This document shows, in pieces, positions 18,384-24,516 of a stretch of 64,000 nt of DNA. The stretch lies in assembly GCA_031431875.1 (NCBI GenBank), contig JANPEF010000026.1, positions 23,270 to 87,269 on the forward strand, written 5' to 3'. Position 1 is the stretch's first letter. Each line of letters opens with the position of its first letter. The notes beneath the pieces are model-generated. The model worked only from the letters and a program-made list of their open reading frames with translations, was not told where the DNA came from and made no database searches. Origin of the DNA: Candidatus Eiseniibacteriota bacterium (GTDB taxonomy: Bacteria; Eisenbacteria; RBG-16-71-46; DASYSL01). A program made the translations under genes and the position numbers.

Positions 18384-21170
18384 ATGTCGTTGCGTCCGCT
18401 CTTCGCGCGCGCGGCGTTCACCTGCGCGCTCGTCGCGTCCGTGTCCGCGTTCGCCCTGCCCGCCCTGGCCGATCAGAAGCCCTTCCCCGACGGCGCCCCC
18501 CCCGCCGGCAAGTCGTCCGGCGACAAGGACAAGAAGGACGGGAAGTCCGCCACCCCCGAAAGCGGCTTCGGGGAGTGGAGCAAGGTCACCAAGGACGCGA
18601 CACGCAAGGACGGCATGTTCCCGGCGTGGACCAAGCGCGAGATCATCTATTGGGAGATCAAGCAGGACCGCCTGGGCAAGCCGTTCCTCATGAACGCGCA
18701 CTTCGCCCGCGGCATCGGCACCGCCTACACGCTGGGCGGCCTGCCGATCGTCGACGGCATGGTGCAGTTCGAGCGCAACGGCGACCGCATCTTCCTCGTC
18801 GCGCCGACGACCAGCATCTTCGCCAGCTCGGGGGACACCGCGTACAAGCGCGCCGTCGACCTGTCGTTCGGCAGCTCCGCGCTGCAGGCGTTCAAGATCG
18901 AGAGCGAAAAGGATTCGACGGTCCTCATCGACATGGCGCCGATGTTCGCCAGCGACTGCCTCGACCTGACCACGCGGCTCAAGAGCTCGACCAACAAGGG
19001 GTTCCGCTTCGACAAGGAGCGCTCGGCGGTCACCTCGCACAAGGCGTTCCCCAGGAACATGGAAGTCGAGGCGCTGCTCACGTTCTCGCCGAACGACCGC
19101 GAGAACCTCGACGTCGGCCCGCTGGCGGACAGTCGCTACGTGCCGATCACGGTCCACTACAGCTTCCTCGAGCTGCCCGAGTCGCCGATGGCCCCGCGGC
19201 TCGCCGACGATCGCGCGGGATACTTCACCAACGCGTACAAGGACATGAGCCGCGACGGCAAGACCGATTACTGGCTGCGCTACATCAACCGCTGGCGCCT
19301 GGAGAAGAAGGACCCGACGGCCGCGGTGTCCGAACCGAAGCAGCCGATCGTGTTCTACCTCGACAAGACCATCCCGGCCGAGTGGAAGCCGTACGTGAAG
19401 GCGGGAATCGAGGAGTGGCAGAAGGCGTTCGAGCAGGCAGGCTTCAAGAACGCGATCATCGCCAAGGATGCGCCGATGGACGATCCCGACTGGGATGCCG
19501 AGGACGCGCGCTACTCGACGATCCGCTGGATCGTGTCGCACGAGCCGAGCTTCGGCGCGATCGGACCCAGCCAGACCGACCCGCGCACCGGCGAGATCCT
19601 GAACGCTGACATCCTGATGGAAGGCAGCATGATCGTCGGTTACTCGAACAACTGGCGGCGCTGGGCCGCCCCCGACGTGGTCGATCAGGCGATGAACCTG
19701 CCGACGCAGGAGTGGCTGAAGAACGTCACCGATCCGTCGCACCTGTGCATGGCCGGAATCGGCCACGCCAGCGAGGCCGAGTTCCTGTCCACCGCGCTCG
19801 CCCTGACCGGTGTGACGCCCCCGGGCGAGCCGGCGCCGAAGGAGTTCGTCGGTGCGGGCCTCAAGGCGGTGACGATGCACGAGGTCGGGCACACACTCGG
19901 GCTGCGTCACAACTTCAAGTCCTCGACCGACGTCCCGCGCGAGATGCTGCAGGACAAGGCGTGGGTCGCCCAGAACGGCCTGGTCGGCTCGATCATGGAC
20001 TACGACACGCCGAACGTCTCGTCCGACCCGGCACGCCAGGGCTACTACTGGTCGCCGACCGTCGGCACCTACGACAACTGGGTGATCCGCTACGGCTACA
20101 CGCCGACCTCGGCCACGACGGCGGAGGACGACTACAAGCTCGTCACGCCGATCGCGCGCGAGGCGACCGCCGACGGTCACCTCTATGGCACCGACGAGGA
20201 CACCTACCCGGCCGACGCGCTCGACCCGCGCTGCAACATCTACGACCTGGGTGCGAGCCCGCTCGCGTTCTCCAAGGACCGCGTCGCCTACGTCCAGAAC
20301 CTGTGGAACACGCCGGGCCTCGAGAGCAAGTTGATGAAGGAGGGCGATTCGTACGTCGCCCTGCGCCGCGCGATGGACTCGATGCTGCTGCAGTATGCGC
20401 GCGGGCTGTCGCACGCCCGCAAGTACGTCGGCGGCCAGTACGCGCACAAGGTGATGAAGGGTGATCCGGGCGAGAGCGGGCCGTTCACGCACGTGCCGCC
20501 GGCCGAGCAGAAGGAGGCGATGGACTTCCTCGCCCAACGCGCCTTCTCCGCCGAGGCGATGAACGTGCCGCCGGCACTGCTCGACAAGATCGGCAAGGAC
20601 CAGCAGTGGGACTGGGGCAACAACCTGTTCGCCTATGGGCGGCAGGACTATCCCTTCCTGTCGCGTGTCCTCGCCATCCAGGTGGGCGCCATGAACGGCA
20701 TCTCCGAGCCCTCGCTGCTGTCGCGCCTGCGCGAGCAGGAATCGCGCGTCGGCGCCGGTGCGTTCCGCGTGCAGGACGTGTTCTCGCGGCTGACCGGCTC
20801 GATCTGCAGCGAGCTCGGCGTCGCCGGTTCCGTTCCGGCGGCGGGTGCGGCCAAGTACGCCGCGCTCGATCGTCCGAACACGCGCCGCGGCCTGCAGCGC
20901 GCCTACGTCGACCGCCTCTCGGAGATGGTGATCAACCCGTCGCCGGCGGCGCCGGAGGATGCCCCGGCCCTGGCGCGGCTCCACCTGACGCGGATCGCCG
21001 ACGCCTGCCAGCGCGGACTGGGCCCCGCCGGCCCCGGCAGCGACACCGTGCGCGCGCACCTGATGGAGCTGCGGGCCCGGGCCCGCCGCGCCCTCGAGGC
21101 GCAGCGCGAAGTGCCAGGCGTCCCGCGGCCCAACCCCATCGCGGGCGGGACCGCCGCCACGGCAAGATAA
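18384..21170 (+). CDS. Exported zinc-dependent metalloprotease (DUF5117/DUF4953, EcxA-like)
   Basis: GGAGG RBS, signal peptide; PRLADDRAGYF, YINRWRLEK, DPRTGEIL, metzincin HEVGHTLGLRHNF and Met-turn SIMDY. Confidence 0.9.
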   Translation: MSLRPLFARAAFTCALVASVSAFALPALADQKPFPDGAPPAGKSSGDKDKKDGKSATPESGFGEWSKVTKDATRKDGMFPAWTKREIIYWEIKQDRLGKPFLMNAHFARGIGTAYTLGGLPIVDGMVQFERNGDRIFLVAPTTSIFASSGDTAYKRAVDLSFGSSALQAFKIESEKDSTVLIDMAPMFASDCLDLTTRLKSSTNKGFRFDKERSAVTSHKAFPRNMEVEALLTFSPNDRENLDVGPLADSRYVPITVHYSFLELPESPMAPRLADDRAGYFTNAYKDMSRDGKTDYWLRYINRWRLEKKDPTAAVSEPKQPIVFYLDKTIPAEWKPYVKAGIEEWQKAFEQAGFKNAIIAKDAPMDDPDWDAEDARYSTIRWIVSHEPSFGAIGPSQTDPRTGEILNADILMEGSMIVGYSNNWRRWAAPDVVDQAMNLPTQEWLKNVTDPSHLCMAGIGHASEAEFLSTALALTGVTPPGEPAPKEFVGAGLKAVTMHEVGHTLGLRHNFKSSTDVPREMLQDKAWVAQNGLVGSIMDYDTPNVSSDPARQGYYWSPTVGTYDNWVIRYGYTPTSATTAEDDYKLVTPIAREATADGHLYGTDEDTYPADALDPRCNIYDLGASPLAFSKDRVAYVQNLWNTPGLESKLMKEGDSYVALRRAMDSMLLQYARGLSHARKYVGGQYAHKVMKGDPGESGPFTHVPPAEQKEAMDFLAQRAFSAEAMNVPPALLDKIGKDQQWDWGNNLFAYGRQDYPFLSRVLAIQVGAMNGISEPSLLSRLREQESRVGAGAFRVQDVFSRLTGSICSELGVAGSVPAAGAAKYAALDRPNTRRGLQRAYVDRLSEMVINPSPAAPEDAPALARLHLTRIADACQRGLGPAGPGSDTVRAHLMELRARARRALEAQREVPGVPRPNPIAGGTAATAR

Positions 21171-21183
21171 CGGCTCCCCATGT

Positions 21184-21205
21184 TGGCTCCCCGAAGGGGG
21201 AGCCA
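21184..21205. terminator. GC-rich hairpin after metalloprotease gene
   Basis: TGGCTCCCC-GAAG-GGGGAGCCA; weak U tract. Confidence 0.45.
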
Positions 21206-21334
21206 GGGTTTCGGCGAACGGCCCCGGTGCAGCCCAGCCGGGGCCTTTCGCTTGCCCGGCATCGCGCCCCTCCGCGCCCGGCCAGGCTCCAAACCAGCCC
21301 CAATAACTTGTCCCTTCGGGACGGAAACTCCCGG

Positions 21335-21364
21335 TTGATCCCGCCGCCGCGGGTGGCGTACACT
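21335..21364 (+). promoter_or_regulatory. possible sigma70-type promoter of rho
   Basis: TTGATC-N18-TACACT. Confidence 0.35.
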
Positions 21365-21563
21365 CTGCCTGTGCGATCGCCGTTCGATCGCACGGCTCGC
21401 GCGGTCGAAACGACGCGCGCGGACGGTGCACCTGCCCGTCCCGATCCCGGCGGCACCCCGCCGCTCACCGGTGTTCCGGTGACGGCCCCGGCCCGCCCGG
21501 CCGCAGCTCCAGCGGCCACACGCATTTCGTGCCACCGAACCAGAAAACGCGAGTGTTCCCATA

Positions 21564-23147
21564 GTGAAACGCACCACCTCCGGCTCCTTCGGCCGTCGTC
21601 CCGCACGCAAGACCACCGGACCCTCGCCCGCTTCGTCGAGCGCATCCCCCATGCGTCCGGCCGGCCCGGCCCCGTCCGCCCCTCCGCCGTCCTATGCCCC
21701 CGCGCCTCCGCGCGAGCGCAACGATGAGCCTCGTCCGCCGCGGGAAGCCCGGCCGCCGCGCGAACAGCGCGATGCCCGCCCGGCCCGCGATGGCCGTCCT
21801 CCCCGCGAGGGGCGCGAAGTCCGCGAGCCTCGCCCGCAGCCCGGGTACGGCACGCGTGCACCGCGTCCCCAGCCGGGCCCCGGCGCCGATCCCGGTGCCC
21901 GCAGCGAAACCGGTGCCCGTGGCCCGGCCGAGGGCCCGCGCGGCGAACGCCGCCGAGGTCGCGGCGGCCGCCGCGCCGGGGGCCGCCCCGAGGGCGTTCG
22001 TCCCGACGGCACGCGCGACTCGCGCGACGTCCCGCGTGGGGATCGCCCGCCCGAGCGGCAGCCCAGCAGCAACGGGTACGGAGCGCAGCGCGGACCGCGC
22101 CCGGCGCCTTCGTCCCAGCCACGTACCAACGGCTTCCGGCGGGCCGATGGCGGCCCGACCGATCGCGCGGGCGAACGCCAGCGCTACGGCGGCGGCGGCT
22201 ACGGTGGCGCGCCTTCGCGCGGGGGCGGCTTCGCCGGTGGTCGCGGTCGCGGCGGCCGGGACCGCCGCGAGGCGCCGTTCACCGACGTGCTCAAGGAACT
22301 TCAGCAGCAGGTCTCGATCGATCCGAACGAGCGCCTCAAGCTCGAGCTGACGTCCGACGGCCTGTCCATGCGCGCGCTCGACATCATCTCGCCCATCGGC
22401 AAGGGTCAGCGCTGCCTCATCACCGCGCCGCCCAAGGCCGGCAAGACGACGCTCCTGCAGGAGGTCGCCGTCTCGCTGGCGAAGAATCATCCCGAGATCG
22501 AAGTCGTCGTGCTGCTGGTCGACGAACGGCCCGAGGAGGTCACACACTTCCGGCGCTCCGTCCCGTGCGAGGTGCTGGCCGCCTCCAGCGACCAGACGTC
22601 GGCCGAGCACGTCGAGATCGCCGAGAAGGCGCTCACCCGCGTGCTCGTGCCGGTGCTCGACGGCAAGGACGTGGTCGTCCTGCTCGACTCGATCACGCGC
22701 CTCGCGCGCGCCTACAACACGACGTTCCAGGGCATCGGCCGCACGCTTTCGGGCGGTCTCGACGCAGCCACCATGCAGGTGCCGCGGCAGATCTTCGGTG
22801 CCGCGCGCAACATCGAGGGTGGCGGCAGCCTCACCATCCTCGGCACGGCGCTGATCGAGACCGGTTCGCGCATGGACGAGGTGATCTTCCAGGAGTTCAA
22901 GGGCACCGGAAACATGGAGCTCGTGCTGTCGCGCCAGCTGTTCGAGCGCCGCGTGTTCCCATGCATCGACATCAAGGCCAGCGGCACCCGCAAGGAAGAG
23001 AAGCTCTACGGCCCCGACGAGATGCGCGCGATCAACAACCTGCGCCGCCGGCTGTCCGAGCGCGACTCCGAGAGCGCGATGAACGAGTTGCTCGAACTGT
23101 TGCGCATGTATCCCACGAACGAGCAGCTTCTCGCCAAGCTCATGTAG
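21564..23147 (+). CDS. rho: Transcription termination factor Rho, atypical (disordered N-terminus, no OB-fold)
   Basis: PIGKGQR, Walker A APPKAGKT, DERPEEVT, LLDSITRLARAYN, FKGTGNMEL, SGTRKEE; start GTG 21564 or ATG 21651. Confidence 0.92.
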   Translation: MKRTTSGSFGRRPARKTTGPSPASSSASPMRPAGPAPSAPPPSYAPAPPRERNDEPRPPREARPPREQRDARPARDGRPPREGREVREPRPQPGYGTRAPRPQPGPGADPGARSETGARGPAEGPRGERRRGRGGRRAGGRPEGVRPDGTRDSRDVPRGDRPPERQPSSNGYGAQRGPRPAPSSQPRTNGFRRADGGPTDRAGERQRYGGGGYGGAPSRGGGFAGGRGRGGRDRREAPFTDVLKELQQQVSIDPNERLKLELTSDGLSMRALDIISPIGKGQRCLITAPPKAGKTTLLQEVAVSLAKNHPEIEVVVLLVDERPEEVTHFRRSVPCEVLAASSDQTSAEHVEIAEKALTRVLVPVLDGKDVVVLLDSITRLARAYNTTFQGIGRTLSGGLDAATMQVPRQIFGAARNIEGGGSLTILGTALIETGSRMDEVIFQEFKGTGNMELVLSRQLFERRVFPCIDIKASGTRKEEKLYGPDEMRAINNLRRRLSERDSESAMNELLELLRMYPTNEQLLAKLM

Positions 23148-23184
23148 CGAAGCTGGTTTCAAGACCGCGGCGCACGGAGGCCCC

Positions 23185-24516
23185 ATGATCCGAATCCGTT
23201 CCAATCCACTCCGGGCCGCGGCCACCGCCGCGGCCTTCGCCGTTTCCCTCGCCACCTCGATCGCACCTGCGCTCGCCGCCGACCCCCCCGTGCCGCGCTG
23301 GCTCCTGCTCACGGGCGCGACGCTGATCGACGGCAGGGGCGGCGCGCCGCAGCGCGGCGTCGAGGTGCTGGTGAAGAACGATCGCATCGAGTCGATCGGC
23401 GCGAACCTGGCGGCCCCCGCCGGGGCGACGACGCTCGACCTGGCCGGCCAGACGCTCTTGCCCGGGCTCATCGACTGCCACACCCACCTGACGTTCGAGG
23501 TCTCCGCCGGCACGCTCCTGCGCGGCGTGACCGAGACGCCCGCCGACCAGGCGATCGGCGCGACGCTCTTCGCGCGGCGCACGCTCGAGGCCGGCTTCAC
23601 CACCGTGCGCAACCTCGGCGCGAGCGAGTTCGTCGACGTGGCACTCAAGAAGGCGATCGACCGCGGCCTGGTCCCGGGACCGCGCATGATCGTCTCCACC
23701 AATTCGTTCTCGACCATCGGCGGCCACGGCGACGCCAATGGCTACCGCCCCGGCATCCTCGAGGACCACCTCGACTACACGCAGGGTCTGCCCACCGGCG
23801 CCGACGAGTGCCGAAAGGCGGTGCGCTACGCGCACAAGCATGGCGCGGGCGTGATCAAGATCATGACCACCGGCGGCGTCCTGTCGGCCAACGACGCGCT
23901 CGACGCACGTGCGTTCTCGGATGCCGAAATCGAGGCGATCGTCGACGAGGCGCACCTGCTGGGGCTGAGAGTCTGCGCGCATGCCCACGGCGCTGAAGGA
24001 CTCAAGGCGGCGGTGCGCGGCGGCGTGAACTCGATCGAGCACGGCACCTACCTCGACGACGAGGGCGTGAACCTGATGAAGCAGAAGGGCTGCTGGTTCG
24101 TCCCGACGCGCAGCGCCGGCGAATGGGTGTTCGACCAGGCCGACAAGGGCGGGATCCCGCCGCACGCCGTGGCCAAGGCGAAGCAGGTCGGCCCGATCAT
24201 GCGCGACTCATTCCGCCGCGCGCTGAACGGCGGTGTGAAGATCGCGTTTGGCACCGATGCCGGCGTCTTCCCCCACGGACAGAACGCGCGCGAGTTCAAG
24301 TTCATGACCGACCTGGGCATGAGCCCCATGGCCGCGATCGTCTCGGCCACCTCCGGAGCCGCCGGGCTGCTGGGCTGGAACGAGGTCGGCGTCGTCGAGA
24401 GGGGCCGCTACGCGGACTTCGTGGCGGTGCCGGGCGACCCGCTGGACGACATCACGCTGCTCGAGCGTCCGAGCCTGGTGATCAAGGGTGGCGCTGTCGT
24501 GATCGACCGCCGCTAG
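23185..24516 (+). CDS. Exported metal-dependent amidohydrolase (Xaa-Pro dipeptidase-like)
   Basis: Signal peptide; PGLIDCHTH, GFTTVRNLG, IKIMTTGGV, AHAHG, SIEHG, AFGTDAG. Confidence 0.92.
   Translation: MIRIRSNPLRAAATAAAFAVSLATSIAPALAADPPVPRWLLLTGATLIDGRGGAPQRGVEVLVKNDRIESIGANLAAPAGATTLDLAGQTLLPGLIDCHTHLTFEVSAGTLLRGVTETPADQAIGATLFARRTLEAGFTTVRNLGASEFVDVALKKAIDRGLVPGPRMIVSTNSFSTIGGHGDANGYRPGILEDHLDYTQGLPTGADECRKAVRYAHKHGAGVIKIMTTGGVLSANDALDARAFSDAEIEAIVDEAHLLGLRVCAHAHGAEGLKAAVRGGVNSIEHGTYLDDEGVNLMKQKGCWFVPTRSAGEWVFDQADKGGIPPHAVAKAKQVGPIMRDSFRRALNGGVKIAFGTDAGVFPHGQNAREFKFMTDLGMSPMAAIVSATSGAAGLLGWNEVGVVERGRYADFVAVPGDPLDDITLLERPSLVIKGGAVVIDRR

What the first reader, a model, noticed from the sequence alone, without database searches (positions are those of the whole stretch)
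21564..23147. Rho whose primary RNA-binding domain is replaced by an RGG/RP-rich intrinsically disordered region
Seen: the ATPase domain from ~22278 is intact (Walker A APPKAGKT, Walker B LLDS, Q-loop GRTLSGG, R-loop FKGTGN, Arg finger SGTRKEE). There is no Rho_N bundle and no OB-fold (no GFGFLR / DIYVS..QI..F.LR.GD in any listed frame). Instead ~235 aa of low-complexity sequence precedes it, with PPRE-type repeats, RRGRGGRR and RYGGGGYGGAPSRGGGFAGGRGRGGR. Known: Rho IDR or prion-like insertions (Bacteroides, Clostridium, Actinobacteria) occur alongside the OB-fold, and the Bacteroides IDR drives phase separation. Inference: a Rho or Rho paralog that recruits RNA via RGG motifs or condensates instead of rut sites, or forms mixed hexamers with a canonical Rho.
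Basis: partly seen in the sequence, partly recalled or inferred. Interest (0 to 1): 0.8.

Follow-up and report, generated by a model that had tools for sequence, protein, structure and literature searches.

The report
Second Rho lacking its RNA-binding domain
This gene is a conserved extra copy of the bacterial transcription terminator Rho that keeps the ATP-driven ring motor but has a long, floppy, arginine-rich tail in place of the RNA-recognition domain; it sits beside a normal rho gene, and this kind of protein is already listed in print, though nobody has tested what it does.

Summary
Window 21564-23147 (+) encodes a 527-aa protein. Residues 239-527 are an intact Rho ATPase domain. Residues 1-238 are Arg/Gly/Pro-rich, net charge +28, and predicted to be disordered. 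No Rho_N or OB fold is found in any frame.

It is not the cell's only Rho: a canonical full-length rho lies on another contig. The gene is real and translated:
- The GTG start and an N-terminal motif are conserved.
- Differences between close relatives fall mainly on third codon positions in the tail.
- Independent contigs bridge the tail-motor junction.

It belongs to one well-supported clan of OB-less second Rhos. By domain counts, 84 of 151 sampled genomes of its phylum (Candidatus Eisenbacteria by public record titles) have such a copy, 37 have a second Rho that keeps the OB, and 26 have one Rho.

Best reading: a ring RNA translocase working beside canonical Rho, with the basic tail as a low-specificity RNA-capture element. 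The mechanism is inferred, not shown.

Novelty is limited. A supplement to Moreira et al. 2024 (PMC11347177) already lists a 'Rho-like ATPase domain' class, with a D/G/R-rich initial domain in Myxococcales, and calls it non-functional. This scan has also reported the same kind on other DNA several times.

The parts
21564..23147 (+). Whole gene: OB-less second Rho (527 aa, GTG start, TGA stop included)
   Evidence: The GTG start with 'VKRT(T/S)SG.(F/Y/H)GRRP' is conserved in 6 genomes.
21564..22277 (+). Disordered Arg/Gly/Pro-rich N-terminal region (aa 1-238), net charge +28
   Evidence: Composition. AF2 gives no secondary structure and pLDDT 41-64. Differences from close relative L008 by codon position are 13/15/73, with 61 synonymous and 28 non-synonymous codons.
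22278..22307 (+). First helix (aa 239-248, within FTDVLKELQQQV) linking the tail to the motor. The adjoining '..LQQ..SIDP.ER' is conserved across the family.
   Evidence: AF2 H239-248; family consensus
22302..23138 (+). Rho C-terminal RecA-type ATPase / secondary RNA-binding domain (aa 247-525)
   Evidence: NF006886 387.3 bits, model 134-412. PDB Rho chains at E 1e-77 to 1e-89.
22425..22448 (+). Walker A APPKAGKT (aa 288-295; E. coli 178-185)
   Evidence: alignment; invariant
22524..22529 (+). Catalytic Glu E321 and Arg valve R322 (E. coli E211, R212)
22680..22691 (+). Walker B LLDS (D375 = E. coli D265)
22725..22763 (+). Q-loop (aa 388-400; R393 = E. coli K283, S396 = T286)
   Evidence: The same GRTLSGGLD string is seen in solved Rho 8hsj.
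22857..22871 (+). R-loop ETGSR (aa 432-436; R436 = E. coli K326)
22989..22991 (+). Arg finger R476 (E. coli R366)
21421..21517 (+). Conserved structured part of the 5' leader: hairpins at 21421-21441, 21466-21481 and 21499-21517 (invariant loop AGCTCCA)
   Evidence: 9 of 29 predicted pairs show compensatory changes, but there are only 6 sequences and 3 are near-identical. No Rfam match.
21220..21255 (+). Terminator-like hairpin with T-rich tail after the upstream Met-zincin gene. It separates that gene from the rho paralogue's own transcription unit.

Best explanation
The gene encodes a conserved, translated second member of the Rho family. The motor half (RecA-type ATPase with Q-loop and R-loop, i.e. 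the secondary RNA-binding site in the ring channel, plus the arginine finger needed at subunit interfaces) is intact. It therefore most likely assembles into a ring and moves 5'->3' along RNA using ATP, like Rho.

The whole N-terminal domain is missing: both the Rho_N helical bundle and the OB-fold primary binding site that reads C-rich rut RNA. In its place is a 238-aa strongly basic disordered tail. The tail leaves the ring on the face where the primary-site crown sits in canonical Rho.

I propose that six such tails act as a sequence-unspecific, electrostatic RNA-capture collar, possibly also promoting clustering. This would let the motor load on transcripts that lack rut sites or are G+C-rich and structured, in parallel with the canonical Rho encoded elsewhere in the genome.

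Shown here: architecture, conservation, translation, and coexistence with canonical rho.
Inferred: ring formation, RNA translocation, the tail's role in RNA capture, and any role in termination.
For: Architecture.

Motor intact:
- Catalytic and RNA-contact residues are invariant in 65 family members and align to E. coli Rho.
- Only 10 positions are fixed differently between 29 OB-less and 19 canonical motor domains, and most are conservative changes.
- The K283R, T286S and K326R equivalents also occur in solved Rho 8hsj.

Coexistence with canonical rho:
- Own genome.
- 5 of 5 other genomes tested have a canonical Rho of >=690 bits plus the second copy.

Conservation:
- 29 OB-less sequences form one clan, SH-aLRT 96. 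An earlier tree gave 26 sequences at 95.
- 84 of 151 sampled genomes of the phylum have >=2 Rho ATPases but 1 OB.
- The best 120 of 7993 database hits carry PF00006 only.

Tail translated and under selection:
- Conserved GTG start and N-terminal motif.
- Third-position excess 13/15/73.
- Indels of 3, 6 and 12 nt in close relatives.

Tail character is kept while its sequence drifts. In the 26 of 27 OB-less ORFs whose tail could be measured (L030 had none called) it has 3.7-10.7% hydrophobic residues, 14.6-27.3% Arg and net charge +15 to +33.

The Arg-rich stretch resembles the Arg-rich insertion of M. tuberculosis Rho 7oqh, by composition-level alignment only.

An RNA-library contig of 919 nt covers 21804-22707. 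This is only a weak hint of expression.
Against: There are no biochemical data for any member.

The only printed statement on the class calls ATPase-only sequences 'not functional Rho factors' (supplement of PMC11347177).

From recall, not checked here: occupancy of the primary site promotes ring closure in E. coli Rho, so a motor without it may load poorly.

The tail evolves under relaxed constraint: 28 non-synonymous codons against 4 in the motor for the same pair. Its GC3 is 79% against 93% in the motor.

No gene neighbour is conserved beyond the family level, so context gives no functional hint.

The RNA-library contig may derive from contaminating DNA.
Confidence: 0.5

Rival explanations
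1. Modulator subunit. The OB-less protein does not work alone but co-assembles with canonical Rho into mixed hexamers. This would reduce the number of primary sites per ring or add basic tails to it, tuning termination strength or target choice.
For: The gene always sits beside a canonical rho where tested: own genome and 5 of 5 other genomes. Interface elements such as the Arg finger R476 and the Walker motifs are conserved. Moreira et al. raise hetero-hexamers for two-Rho species (main-text passage).
Against: Motor-domain identity to the cell's own canonical Rho is only 50%, while canonical Rhos are 70-94% alike across the same genomes. The paralogue clan has evolved separately for a long time. 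No test of co-assembly was run.
Confidence: 0.2
2. An RNA motor with a job other than transcription termination, for example RNA remodelling, decay, R-loop removal or ribosome assembly. The basic tail would act like the RGG or basic tails of RNA helicases and chaperones.
For: The rut-reading domain is lost while the translocase is kept. The tail is Arg/Gly-rich. The gene stands alone, with no link to transcription genes.
Against: Nothing positive points to any of these processes. All characterised relatives are termination factors (PDB names).
Confidence: 0.2
3. A decaying or non-functional duplicate, in line with the label 'not functional Rho factors' given to ATPase-only sequences in print.
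For: Supplement text of PMC11347177. The tail is under relaxed constraint.
Against: Between close relatives the motor has 52 synonymous against 4 non-synonymous codon differences. Catalytic residues are invariant in 65 sequences. The clan spans at least five GTDB-coded families and 84 of 151 genomes.
Confidence: 0.04
4. Artefact: a misassembly deleted the OB fold, or the tail is untranslated leader and the real protein starts near the motor.
For: Gene callers in public data give lengths of 289-581 aa for relatives, so starts are called inconsistently. Open frames are common in DNA this G+C-rich.
Against: Contigs from other runs bridge the junction: X7 covers 21121-22536, X13 covers 21804-22707, X5 covers 22021-22331. 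The same architecture appears in many independent assemblies. The start and motifs are conserved, and the codon-position pattern fits this frame.
Confidence: 0.02

Closest known systems
Canonical Rho (E. coli type; 'Type 1' of Moreira et al. 2024; TIGR00767 / NF006886; PDB 1pv4, 3ice, 5jji)
   Same: The C-terminal ATPase domain has Walker A/B, catalytic Glu, Arg valve, Q-loop, R-loop and Arg finger. It matches solved Rho chains at E 1e-77 to 1e-89.
   Different: The whole N-terminal domain (Rho_N bundle plus OB-fold primary RNA site, about 130 aa) is absent and replaced by a 238-aa basic disordered tail. The score is below the TIGR00767 cut-off (376.8 against 509.45).
'Rho-like ATPase domain' class in the supplement of Moreira et al. 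2024 (PMC11347177): 28 sequences in 28 organisms; Myxococcales members have a D/G/R-rich initial domain
   Same: Only the Rho ATPase/bicyclomycin-pocket domain is present, the essential residues are kept, and there is a compositionally biased R/G-rich N-terminal region.
   Different: That set comes from Pseudomonadota, Myxococcota, one PVC-group genome and one Chloroflexi genome. No Eisenbacteria or Krumholzibacteriota name occurs in the supplement. I did not test whether the present clan is the same lineage. The authors call the class non-functional, whereas here it is strongly conserved.
'Group B' / Type 4 / subtype 2d second Rho (D'Heygere et al. 2013 as cited by Moreira et al. 2024)
   Same: A second, faster-evolving rho beside a conserved canonical one, without the Rho_N bundle and often with an R/G-rich leader. 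Such forms occur in the same phylum (37 of 151 genomes) and in Acidobacteriota.
   Different: Group B proteins keep the OB fold; this one does not. On the motor-domain tree the OB-less sequences form their own clan.
Rho with disordered insertions (M. tuberculosis Rho 7oqh; Bacteroides thetaiotaomicron Rho, phase separation as cited in PMC11347177)
   Same: An Arg-rich, low-complexity, disordered segment N-terminal to the motor. There is composition-level similarity to the Mtb insertion.
   Different: In those proteins the disordered segment is added to an intact Rho_N plus OB domain. Here it stands in place of them.
NCBIfam NF041509 'paralog_Rho2, Rho short form'
   Same: A named model for a shortened Rho paralogue. 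It matches aa 245-526.
   Different: The score of 353 is far below the cut-off of 628. Model positions 1-78, the OB part, are unmatched. None of the five other proteins scanned against it (the genome's canonical Rho and four second Rhos from related and acidobacterial genomes) reaches the cut-off either.

Membership tests
Canonical transcription termination factor Rho | Rho_N helical bundle (PF07498) | tested here: not met
   No match at E<=1. 0 of 52 relatives' stop-to-stop ORFs have it at E<=0.01.
Canonical transcription termination factor Rho | OB-fold primary RNA-binding domain (PF07497) | tested here: not met
   No match in the protein. The only six-frame genome match is on another contig. 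tblastn with the genome's own NTD finds nothing in the locus. AF2 shows no fold in 1-238.
Canonical transcription termination factor Rho | RecA-type ATPase with Walker A/B, catalytic Glu, Arg finger | tested here: met
   K294/T295, D375, E321 and R476 align to E. coli K184/T185, D265, E211 and R366 and are invariant in 65 sequences.
Canonical transcription termination factor Rho | Secondary RNA-binding site (Q-loop, R-loop) | tested here: met
   Both loops are present, with the conservative changes K283R, T286S and K326R. The same residues occur in solved Rho 8hsj.
Canonical transcription termination factor Rho | Curated whole-protein score cut-offs | tested here: inconclusive
   NF006886: 387.3, above its cut-off of 315. 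TIGR00767: 376.8, below its cut-off of 509.45.
Canonical transcription termination factor Rho | Hexameric ring, RNA-dependent ATPase, termination activity | not testable with these tools
   Needs biochemistry.
Group B / Type 4 second Rho (OB + ATPase, no Rho_N) | Retains the Rho_RNA_bind OB fold | tested here: not met
NF041509 paralog_Rho2 (short form) | Score at or above the curated cut-off of 628 bits | tested here: not met
   353 bits, model positions 79-360 only
'Rho-like ATPase domain' class (Moreira et al. 2024 supplement) | Only the Rho ATPase/BCM-pocket domain is detectable, with essential residues kept | tested here: met
   class definition read
'Rho-like ATPase domain' class (Moreira et al. 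2024 supplement) | Same evolutionary lineage as the published members (Myxococcales and others) | not tested
   No published member's sequence was fetched.
RGG/RG-motif RNA-binding disordered regions (definition recalled, not from a call) | Clustered RGG/RG repeats in a disordered, Gly/Arg-rich context | tested here: inconclusive
   3 RGG (positions 133, 219, 229), 9 RG and 9 GR in 238 aa. There is no closely spaced tri-RGG array. RNA binding cannot be tested here.

The most novel reading that the evidence does not exclude
The OB-less Rho is a fully active termination factor or RNA translocase that loads on RNA without any primary binding site. It would use a collar of six arginine-rich disordered tails, and so define a second, rut-independent Rho pathway. 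That pathway has been kept for a very long time beside canonical Rho in a whole phylum of high-G+C bacteria. A conserved structured 5' leader may autoregulate it.
Probability: 0.3. Interest if true: 0.7.

Novelty: new member of a known kind. Interest (0 to 1): 0.42.

Why it matters
Rho's textbook mechanism starts with the OB-fold crown catching C-rich RNA. A large, strongly conserved clade keeps the motor and discards that crown. It is therefore a natural experiment on whether, and how, a Rho ring can load without its primary site, and on what disordered basic tails contribute to Rho function.

There is also a practical point. Annotation pipelines name these proteins plainly 'transcription termination factor Rho' (the NF006886 cut-off is passed). 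This hides the fact that many genomes carry two very different Rho proteins.

Tried and rejected
- Hidden OB fold in another frame or upstream: rejected (stop-to-stop ORFs).
- Misassembly: rejected.
- Untranslated tail: rejected.
- Defence-system membership: PADLOC gives only weak P-loop-level matches, mad8 26.9 bits.
- Known RNA element in the leader or anywhere in the window: 0 Rfam matches at gathering score.
- Sigma-70-type promoter in 20900-23500: 0 found.
- Conserved neighbours that might hint at function: the order Met-zincin, rho paralogue, amidohydrolase, SDR holds only within the window's own family. No gene is shared across the 17 loci compared, apart from the rho paralogue itself and its shadow ORFs.
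- DNA-level indel phasing with distant relatives (about 55% identity): the alignments were unreliable and gave gaps of all lengths. Only the close pairs are used.
- GC3 as a frame signal: not informative, because Arg, Gly and Pro codons raise GC1 and GC2 in the tail.
- Origin of the OB-less clan from the phylum's OB-containing second Rhos: not resolved. The joining branch has support 47. The trees are unrooted quick searches with SH-aLRT support only.
- RNA runs X13 and X17 hold small shares of the words. Only the one 919-nt X13 contig is used, and only as a weak hint. The high depth at 22650-22950 comes from conserved Rho motifs of many organisms.
- Literature: searches found no paper on an OB-less Rho apart from PMC11347177. 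PMC13613805 and the 2025 mycobacterial preprint were checked by passages and concern other things.
- Complex prediction was not run, because a pass between two Rho motor domains would only reflect likeness to solved Rho rings.
Full report
**1. Observation**

The window holds an open frame at 21564..23147 (+) of 527 aa with a GTG start. This stretch is very G+C-rich: 0.77-0.83 over the first 700 nt, against 0.63-0.69 over the rest of the gene. Long open frames exist on both strands here, so an open frame alone means little.

- Pfam finds only the general ATP-synt_ab domain above its cut-off (aa 269-473). There is no Rho_N or Rho_RNA_bind at E<=1.
- NCBIfam Rho models match aa 247-526 only, which is model positions 134-412 of 413. 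The score is 387.3 bits for NF006886 (cut-off 315) and 376.8 for TIGR00767 (cut-off 509.45).
- Aligned to E. coli Rho (PDB 1pv4; window residue = E. coli + 110), every catalytic and RNA-contact element is present:

| Element | E. coli | Window protein |
|---|---|---|
| Walker A | K181/K184/T185 | K291/K294/T295 |
| Catalytic Glu / Arg valve | E211/R212 | E321/R322 |
| Walker B | D265 | D375 |
| Q-loop | K283/T286 | R393/S396 |
| R-loop | K326 | R436 |
| (conserved Arg) | R353 | R463 |
| Arg finger | R366 | R476 |

- The three substitutions (K283R, T286S, K326R) also occur in solved Rho 8hsj.
The R-loop is ETGSR at 432-436.
- Residues 1-238 are 21.4% Arg, 18.5% Gly and 18.5% Pro, with no L, I, W, C or H and a net charge of +28. 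They hold 3 RGG, 9 RG, 9 GR and 3 RPPRE.
- AlphaFold2, run with a 65-sequence alignment, gives no secondary structure and pLDDT 41-64 for 1-238. From 239 on the domain is confidently folded, with ten-residue block means mostly 81-97 and one dip to 60 near residue 395.
- DNA-level tandem repeats in the tail are weak. The best is 2.3 copies of an 18-nt unit.

**2. The OB fold is not hiding and the gene is not an artefact**

- A six-frame search of the whole genome with PF07497 at E<=10 gives one match, on contig C28.
- tblastn with that genome's own canonical N-terminal domain hits nothing in the window locus in any frame.
- Contigs from other sequencing runs cross the tail-motor junction:
  - X7, a DNA run of another study: one 1409-nt contig over 21121-22536, with 67 differences and a 6-nt deletion.
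  - X13, an RNA library: one 919-nt contig over 21804-22707.
  - X5: 22021-22331 with no differences.
- The GTG start and the motif VKRT(T/S)SG.(F/Y/H)GRRP are shared by six genomes. In one of them the frame opens only three codons upstream.
- Between the window and close relative L008, the tail differs at codon positions 1/2/3 in 13/15/73 places. That is 61 synonymous against 28 non-synonymous codons. The motor has 52 against 4.
- The tail is therefore translated and under purifying selection, though more relaxed than the motor.
- Indels against close relatives are 3, 6 and 12 nt.

**3. It is a paralogue**

- The same genome has a canonical rho on contig C28: 703.3 bits, model positions 1-413, 427 aa, with the usual N-terminal domain.
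- The two motor domains are 50% identical.
- Five other genomes reached through related loci each have a canonical Rho of >=690 bits plus a second copy. In three of them the second copy starts at model position 128-139 (OB-less). In two Acidobacteriota it starts at 49-52 (OB kept, Rho_N lost).
- Canonical Rhos are 70-94% identical across these genomes. The second copies are 56-71% identical to the window's motor outside its own GTDB-coded family f1.

**4. Family and distribution**

- The nearest public records are titled Candidatus Eiseniibacteriota/Eisenbacteria, Krumholzibacteriota, Gemmatimonadota (as MAG labels) and then Acidobacteriota.
- I scanned 52 of the 91 stop-to-stop ORFs from related loci with Pfam:
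  - 34 have no Rho_RNA_bind at E<=0.01.
  - 18 have a weak or divergent one (16.8-69.5 bits).
  - 0 have Rho_N.
- Of the 34, 27 (L006-L030, L033, L039) are treated below as the OB-less set. A tail could be measured for 26 of them, because none was called for L030. These tails are 101-262 aa long, 3.7-10.7% hydrophobic and 14.6-27.3% Arg, with net charge +15 to +33.
- Six acidobacterial ORFs without a Pfam hit have 17-24% hydrophobic N-regions and may hold an OB too divergent to score. tblastn found one of them, L084.
- On motor-domain trees (quick IQ-TREE, unrooted, SH-aLRT only):
  - The OB-less sequences fall on one side of a branch: 26 rows with support 95, and 29 rows with support 96 after adding three more families.
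  - The 19 canonical Rhos form another clan with support 99.
- In a sample of 151 genomes of the phylum:

| Pattern | Genomes | Where (GTDB-coded families) |
|---|---|---|
| >=2 Rho ATPase matches, 1 OB (OB-less second Rho) | 84 | f1 5/6, f3 53/60, f4 7/7, f8 5/5, f10 10/10 |
| >=2 ATPases and >=2 OBs (second Rho with OB) | 37 | f7 23/32, f13 8/12, others |
| One Rho ATPase | 26 | f2 3/3, f9 5/5, others |
| Other patterns, in incomplete assemblies | 4 | |

- These classes rest on match counts, so fragmented genes can misplace a genome.
- How the OB-less clan relates to the phylum's OB-containing second Rhos is unresolved (support 47).
- In the 5.8-billion-protein collection, the best 120 of 7993 scored hits all carry PF00006 alone. 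Where they have a name, it is 'transcription termination factor Rho'.
- ESM Atlas clusters with PF00006 only are commonest in Eiseniibacteriota (68 members) and Planctomycetota (100 members).

**5. Surroundings**

- Upstream lies a Met-zincin gene (DUF5117 + DUF4953). Downstream lie an amidohydrolase and a short-chain dehydrogenase.
- This gene order holds only within the window's family. No neighbour is shared across 17 loci of the clan.
- A terminator-like hairpin at 21220-21245 follows the upstream gene. That leaves a leader of about 320 nt.
- The last 150 nt of the leader hold three hairpins that are conserved, with compensatory changes, in six genomes. Hairpin 21499-21517 has an invariant loop AGCTCCA. 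Rfam has nothing there.

**6. Mechanism**

- Only 10 positions are fixed differently between the OB-less and canonical motors, and most are conservative changes. The motor chemistry is therefore most likely unchanged: a ring that hydrolyses ATP at subunit interfaces and pulls RNA through Q- and R-loops.
- What must differ is loading. The tail leaves the ring on the face where the primary-site crown normally sits, and the stretch just before the first helix is Arg-rich across the family.
- I therefore favour an unspecific electrostatic capture collar working beside canonical Rho (confidence 0.5 for the whole chain; the steps after 'intact motor' are inference).
- Rivals:
  - Mixed rings with canonical Rho: 0.2.
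  - A non-termination RNA motor: 0.2.
  - A dead duplicate: 0.04.
  - An artefact: 0.02.

**7. What is known**

I read passages of the main text and supplement of Moreira et al. 2024 (PMC11347177).

- They define functional Rho as OB + ATPase.
- They describe second copies lacking Rho_N ('Group B', Type 4, subtype 2d).
- In the supplement they list a 'Rho-like ATPase domain' class of 28 sequences in 28 organisms, 'not functional Rho factors', with essential residues kept and, in Myxococcales, 'an initial domain D/G/R rich'.
- No Eisenbacteria or Krumholzibacteriota name occurs in that supplement.
- D'Heygere et al. 2013 is known to me only through their citation.
- A 2025 review (PMC12360218) had no passage on such paralogues for the terms I searched.
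- Two full-text searches found nothing further.
- NF041509 'paralog_Rho2, short form' is not met: 353 bits against a cut-off of 628.

Earlier reports of this scan describe the same kind on other DNA, one of them in Eisenbacteria. One was later marked as in print. I confirmed the printed passage myself.

**8. Verdict**

This is a real, conserved, translated OB-less second Rho. It is a new lineage of a class that has already been catalogued but never studied functionally, so interest is moderate.

Rows from the unpublished genome G007 (L011, L110) enter. An ORF of the same length, identity and composition is in the public record behind L018. No conclusion depends on G007 alone.

Noticed in passing
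window 21421-21517 (5' leader of the gene): There are three hairpins, at 21421-21441, 21466-21481 and 21499-21517 (invariant 7-nt loop AGCTCCA). They are conserved, with compensatory changes, upstream of the GTG in six genomes whose tails are only about 55% identical at DNA level. Rfam has no match. This may be a cis-regulatory leader of the rho paralogue.
   Followed up: partly
window 21564-21602; L133, L134, L136 (N-termini of second Rhos with tail + OB in families f15/f16): The N-terminal motif VKRT(T/S)SG.(F/Y/H)GRRP of the window's family resembles M(T/S)K(S/A)SR(T/A)(Y/W)GRR(P/S) at the start of long tail+OB+ATPase second Rhos of other families. On the motor-domain tree these do not group with the OB-less clan. 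Shared ancestry of the tails, or convergence on a binding motif, is unexplained.
   Followed up: partly
window 21564-22277 against 22278-23144: Third-position G+C is 79% in the tail and 93% in the motor (95% in the canonical rho). Codon usage in the disordered region differs from the rest of the gene.
   Followed up: no
L097, L102, L107 (genome G044, Acidobacteriota label): This genome shows two full-length canonical-type rho matches (709 and 699.5 bits, on different contigs) plus an OB-containing second Rho, so three rho genes. This could be real or could be bin contamination.
   Followed up: no
L131, L132, L137 (family f7 of the same phylum): These are short second Rhos of about 360 aa that begin directly with the OB fold (no Rho_N, no tail) and form their own well-supported clade. 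They still score only 359.5 bits on NF041509 'Rho short form', whose cut-off is 628.
   Followed up: partly
window 21465-23738 (- strand) and other frames over the gene: Long shadow ORFs (757 aa antisense, 218 aa in another + frame) overlap the gene. Homologous shadow frames recur in relatives simply because the rho frame is conserved. They are not genes.
   Followed up: partly
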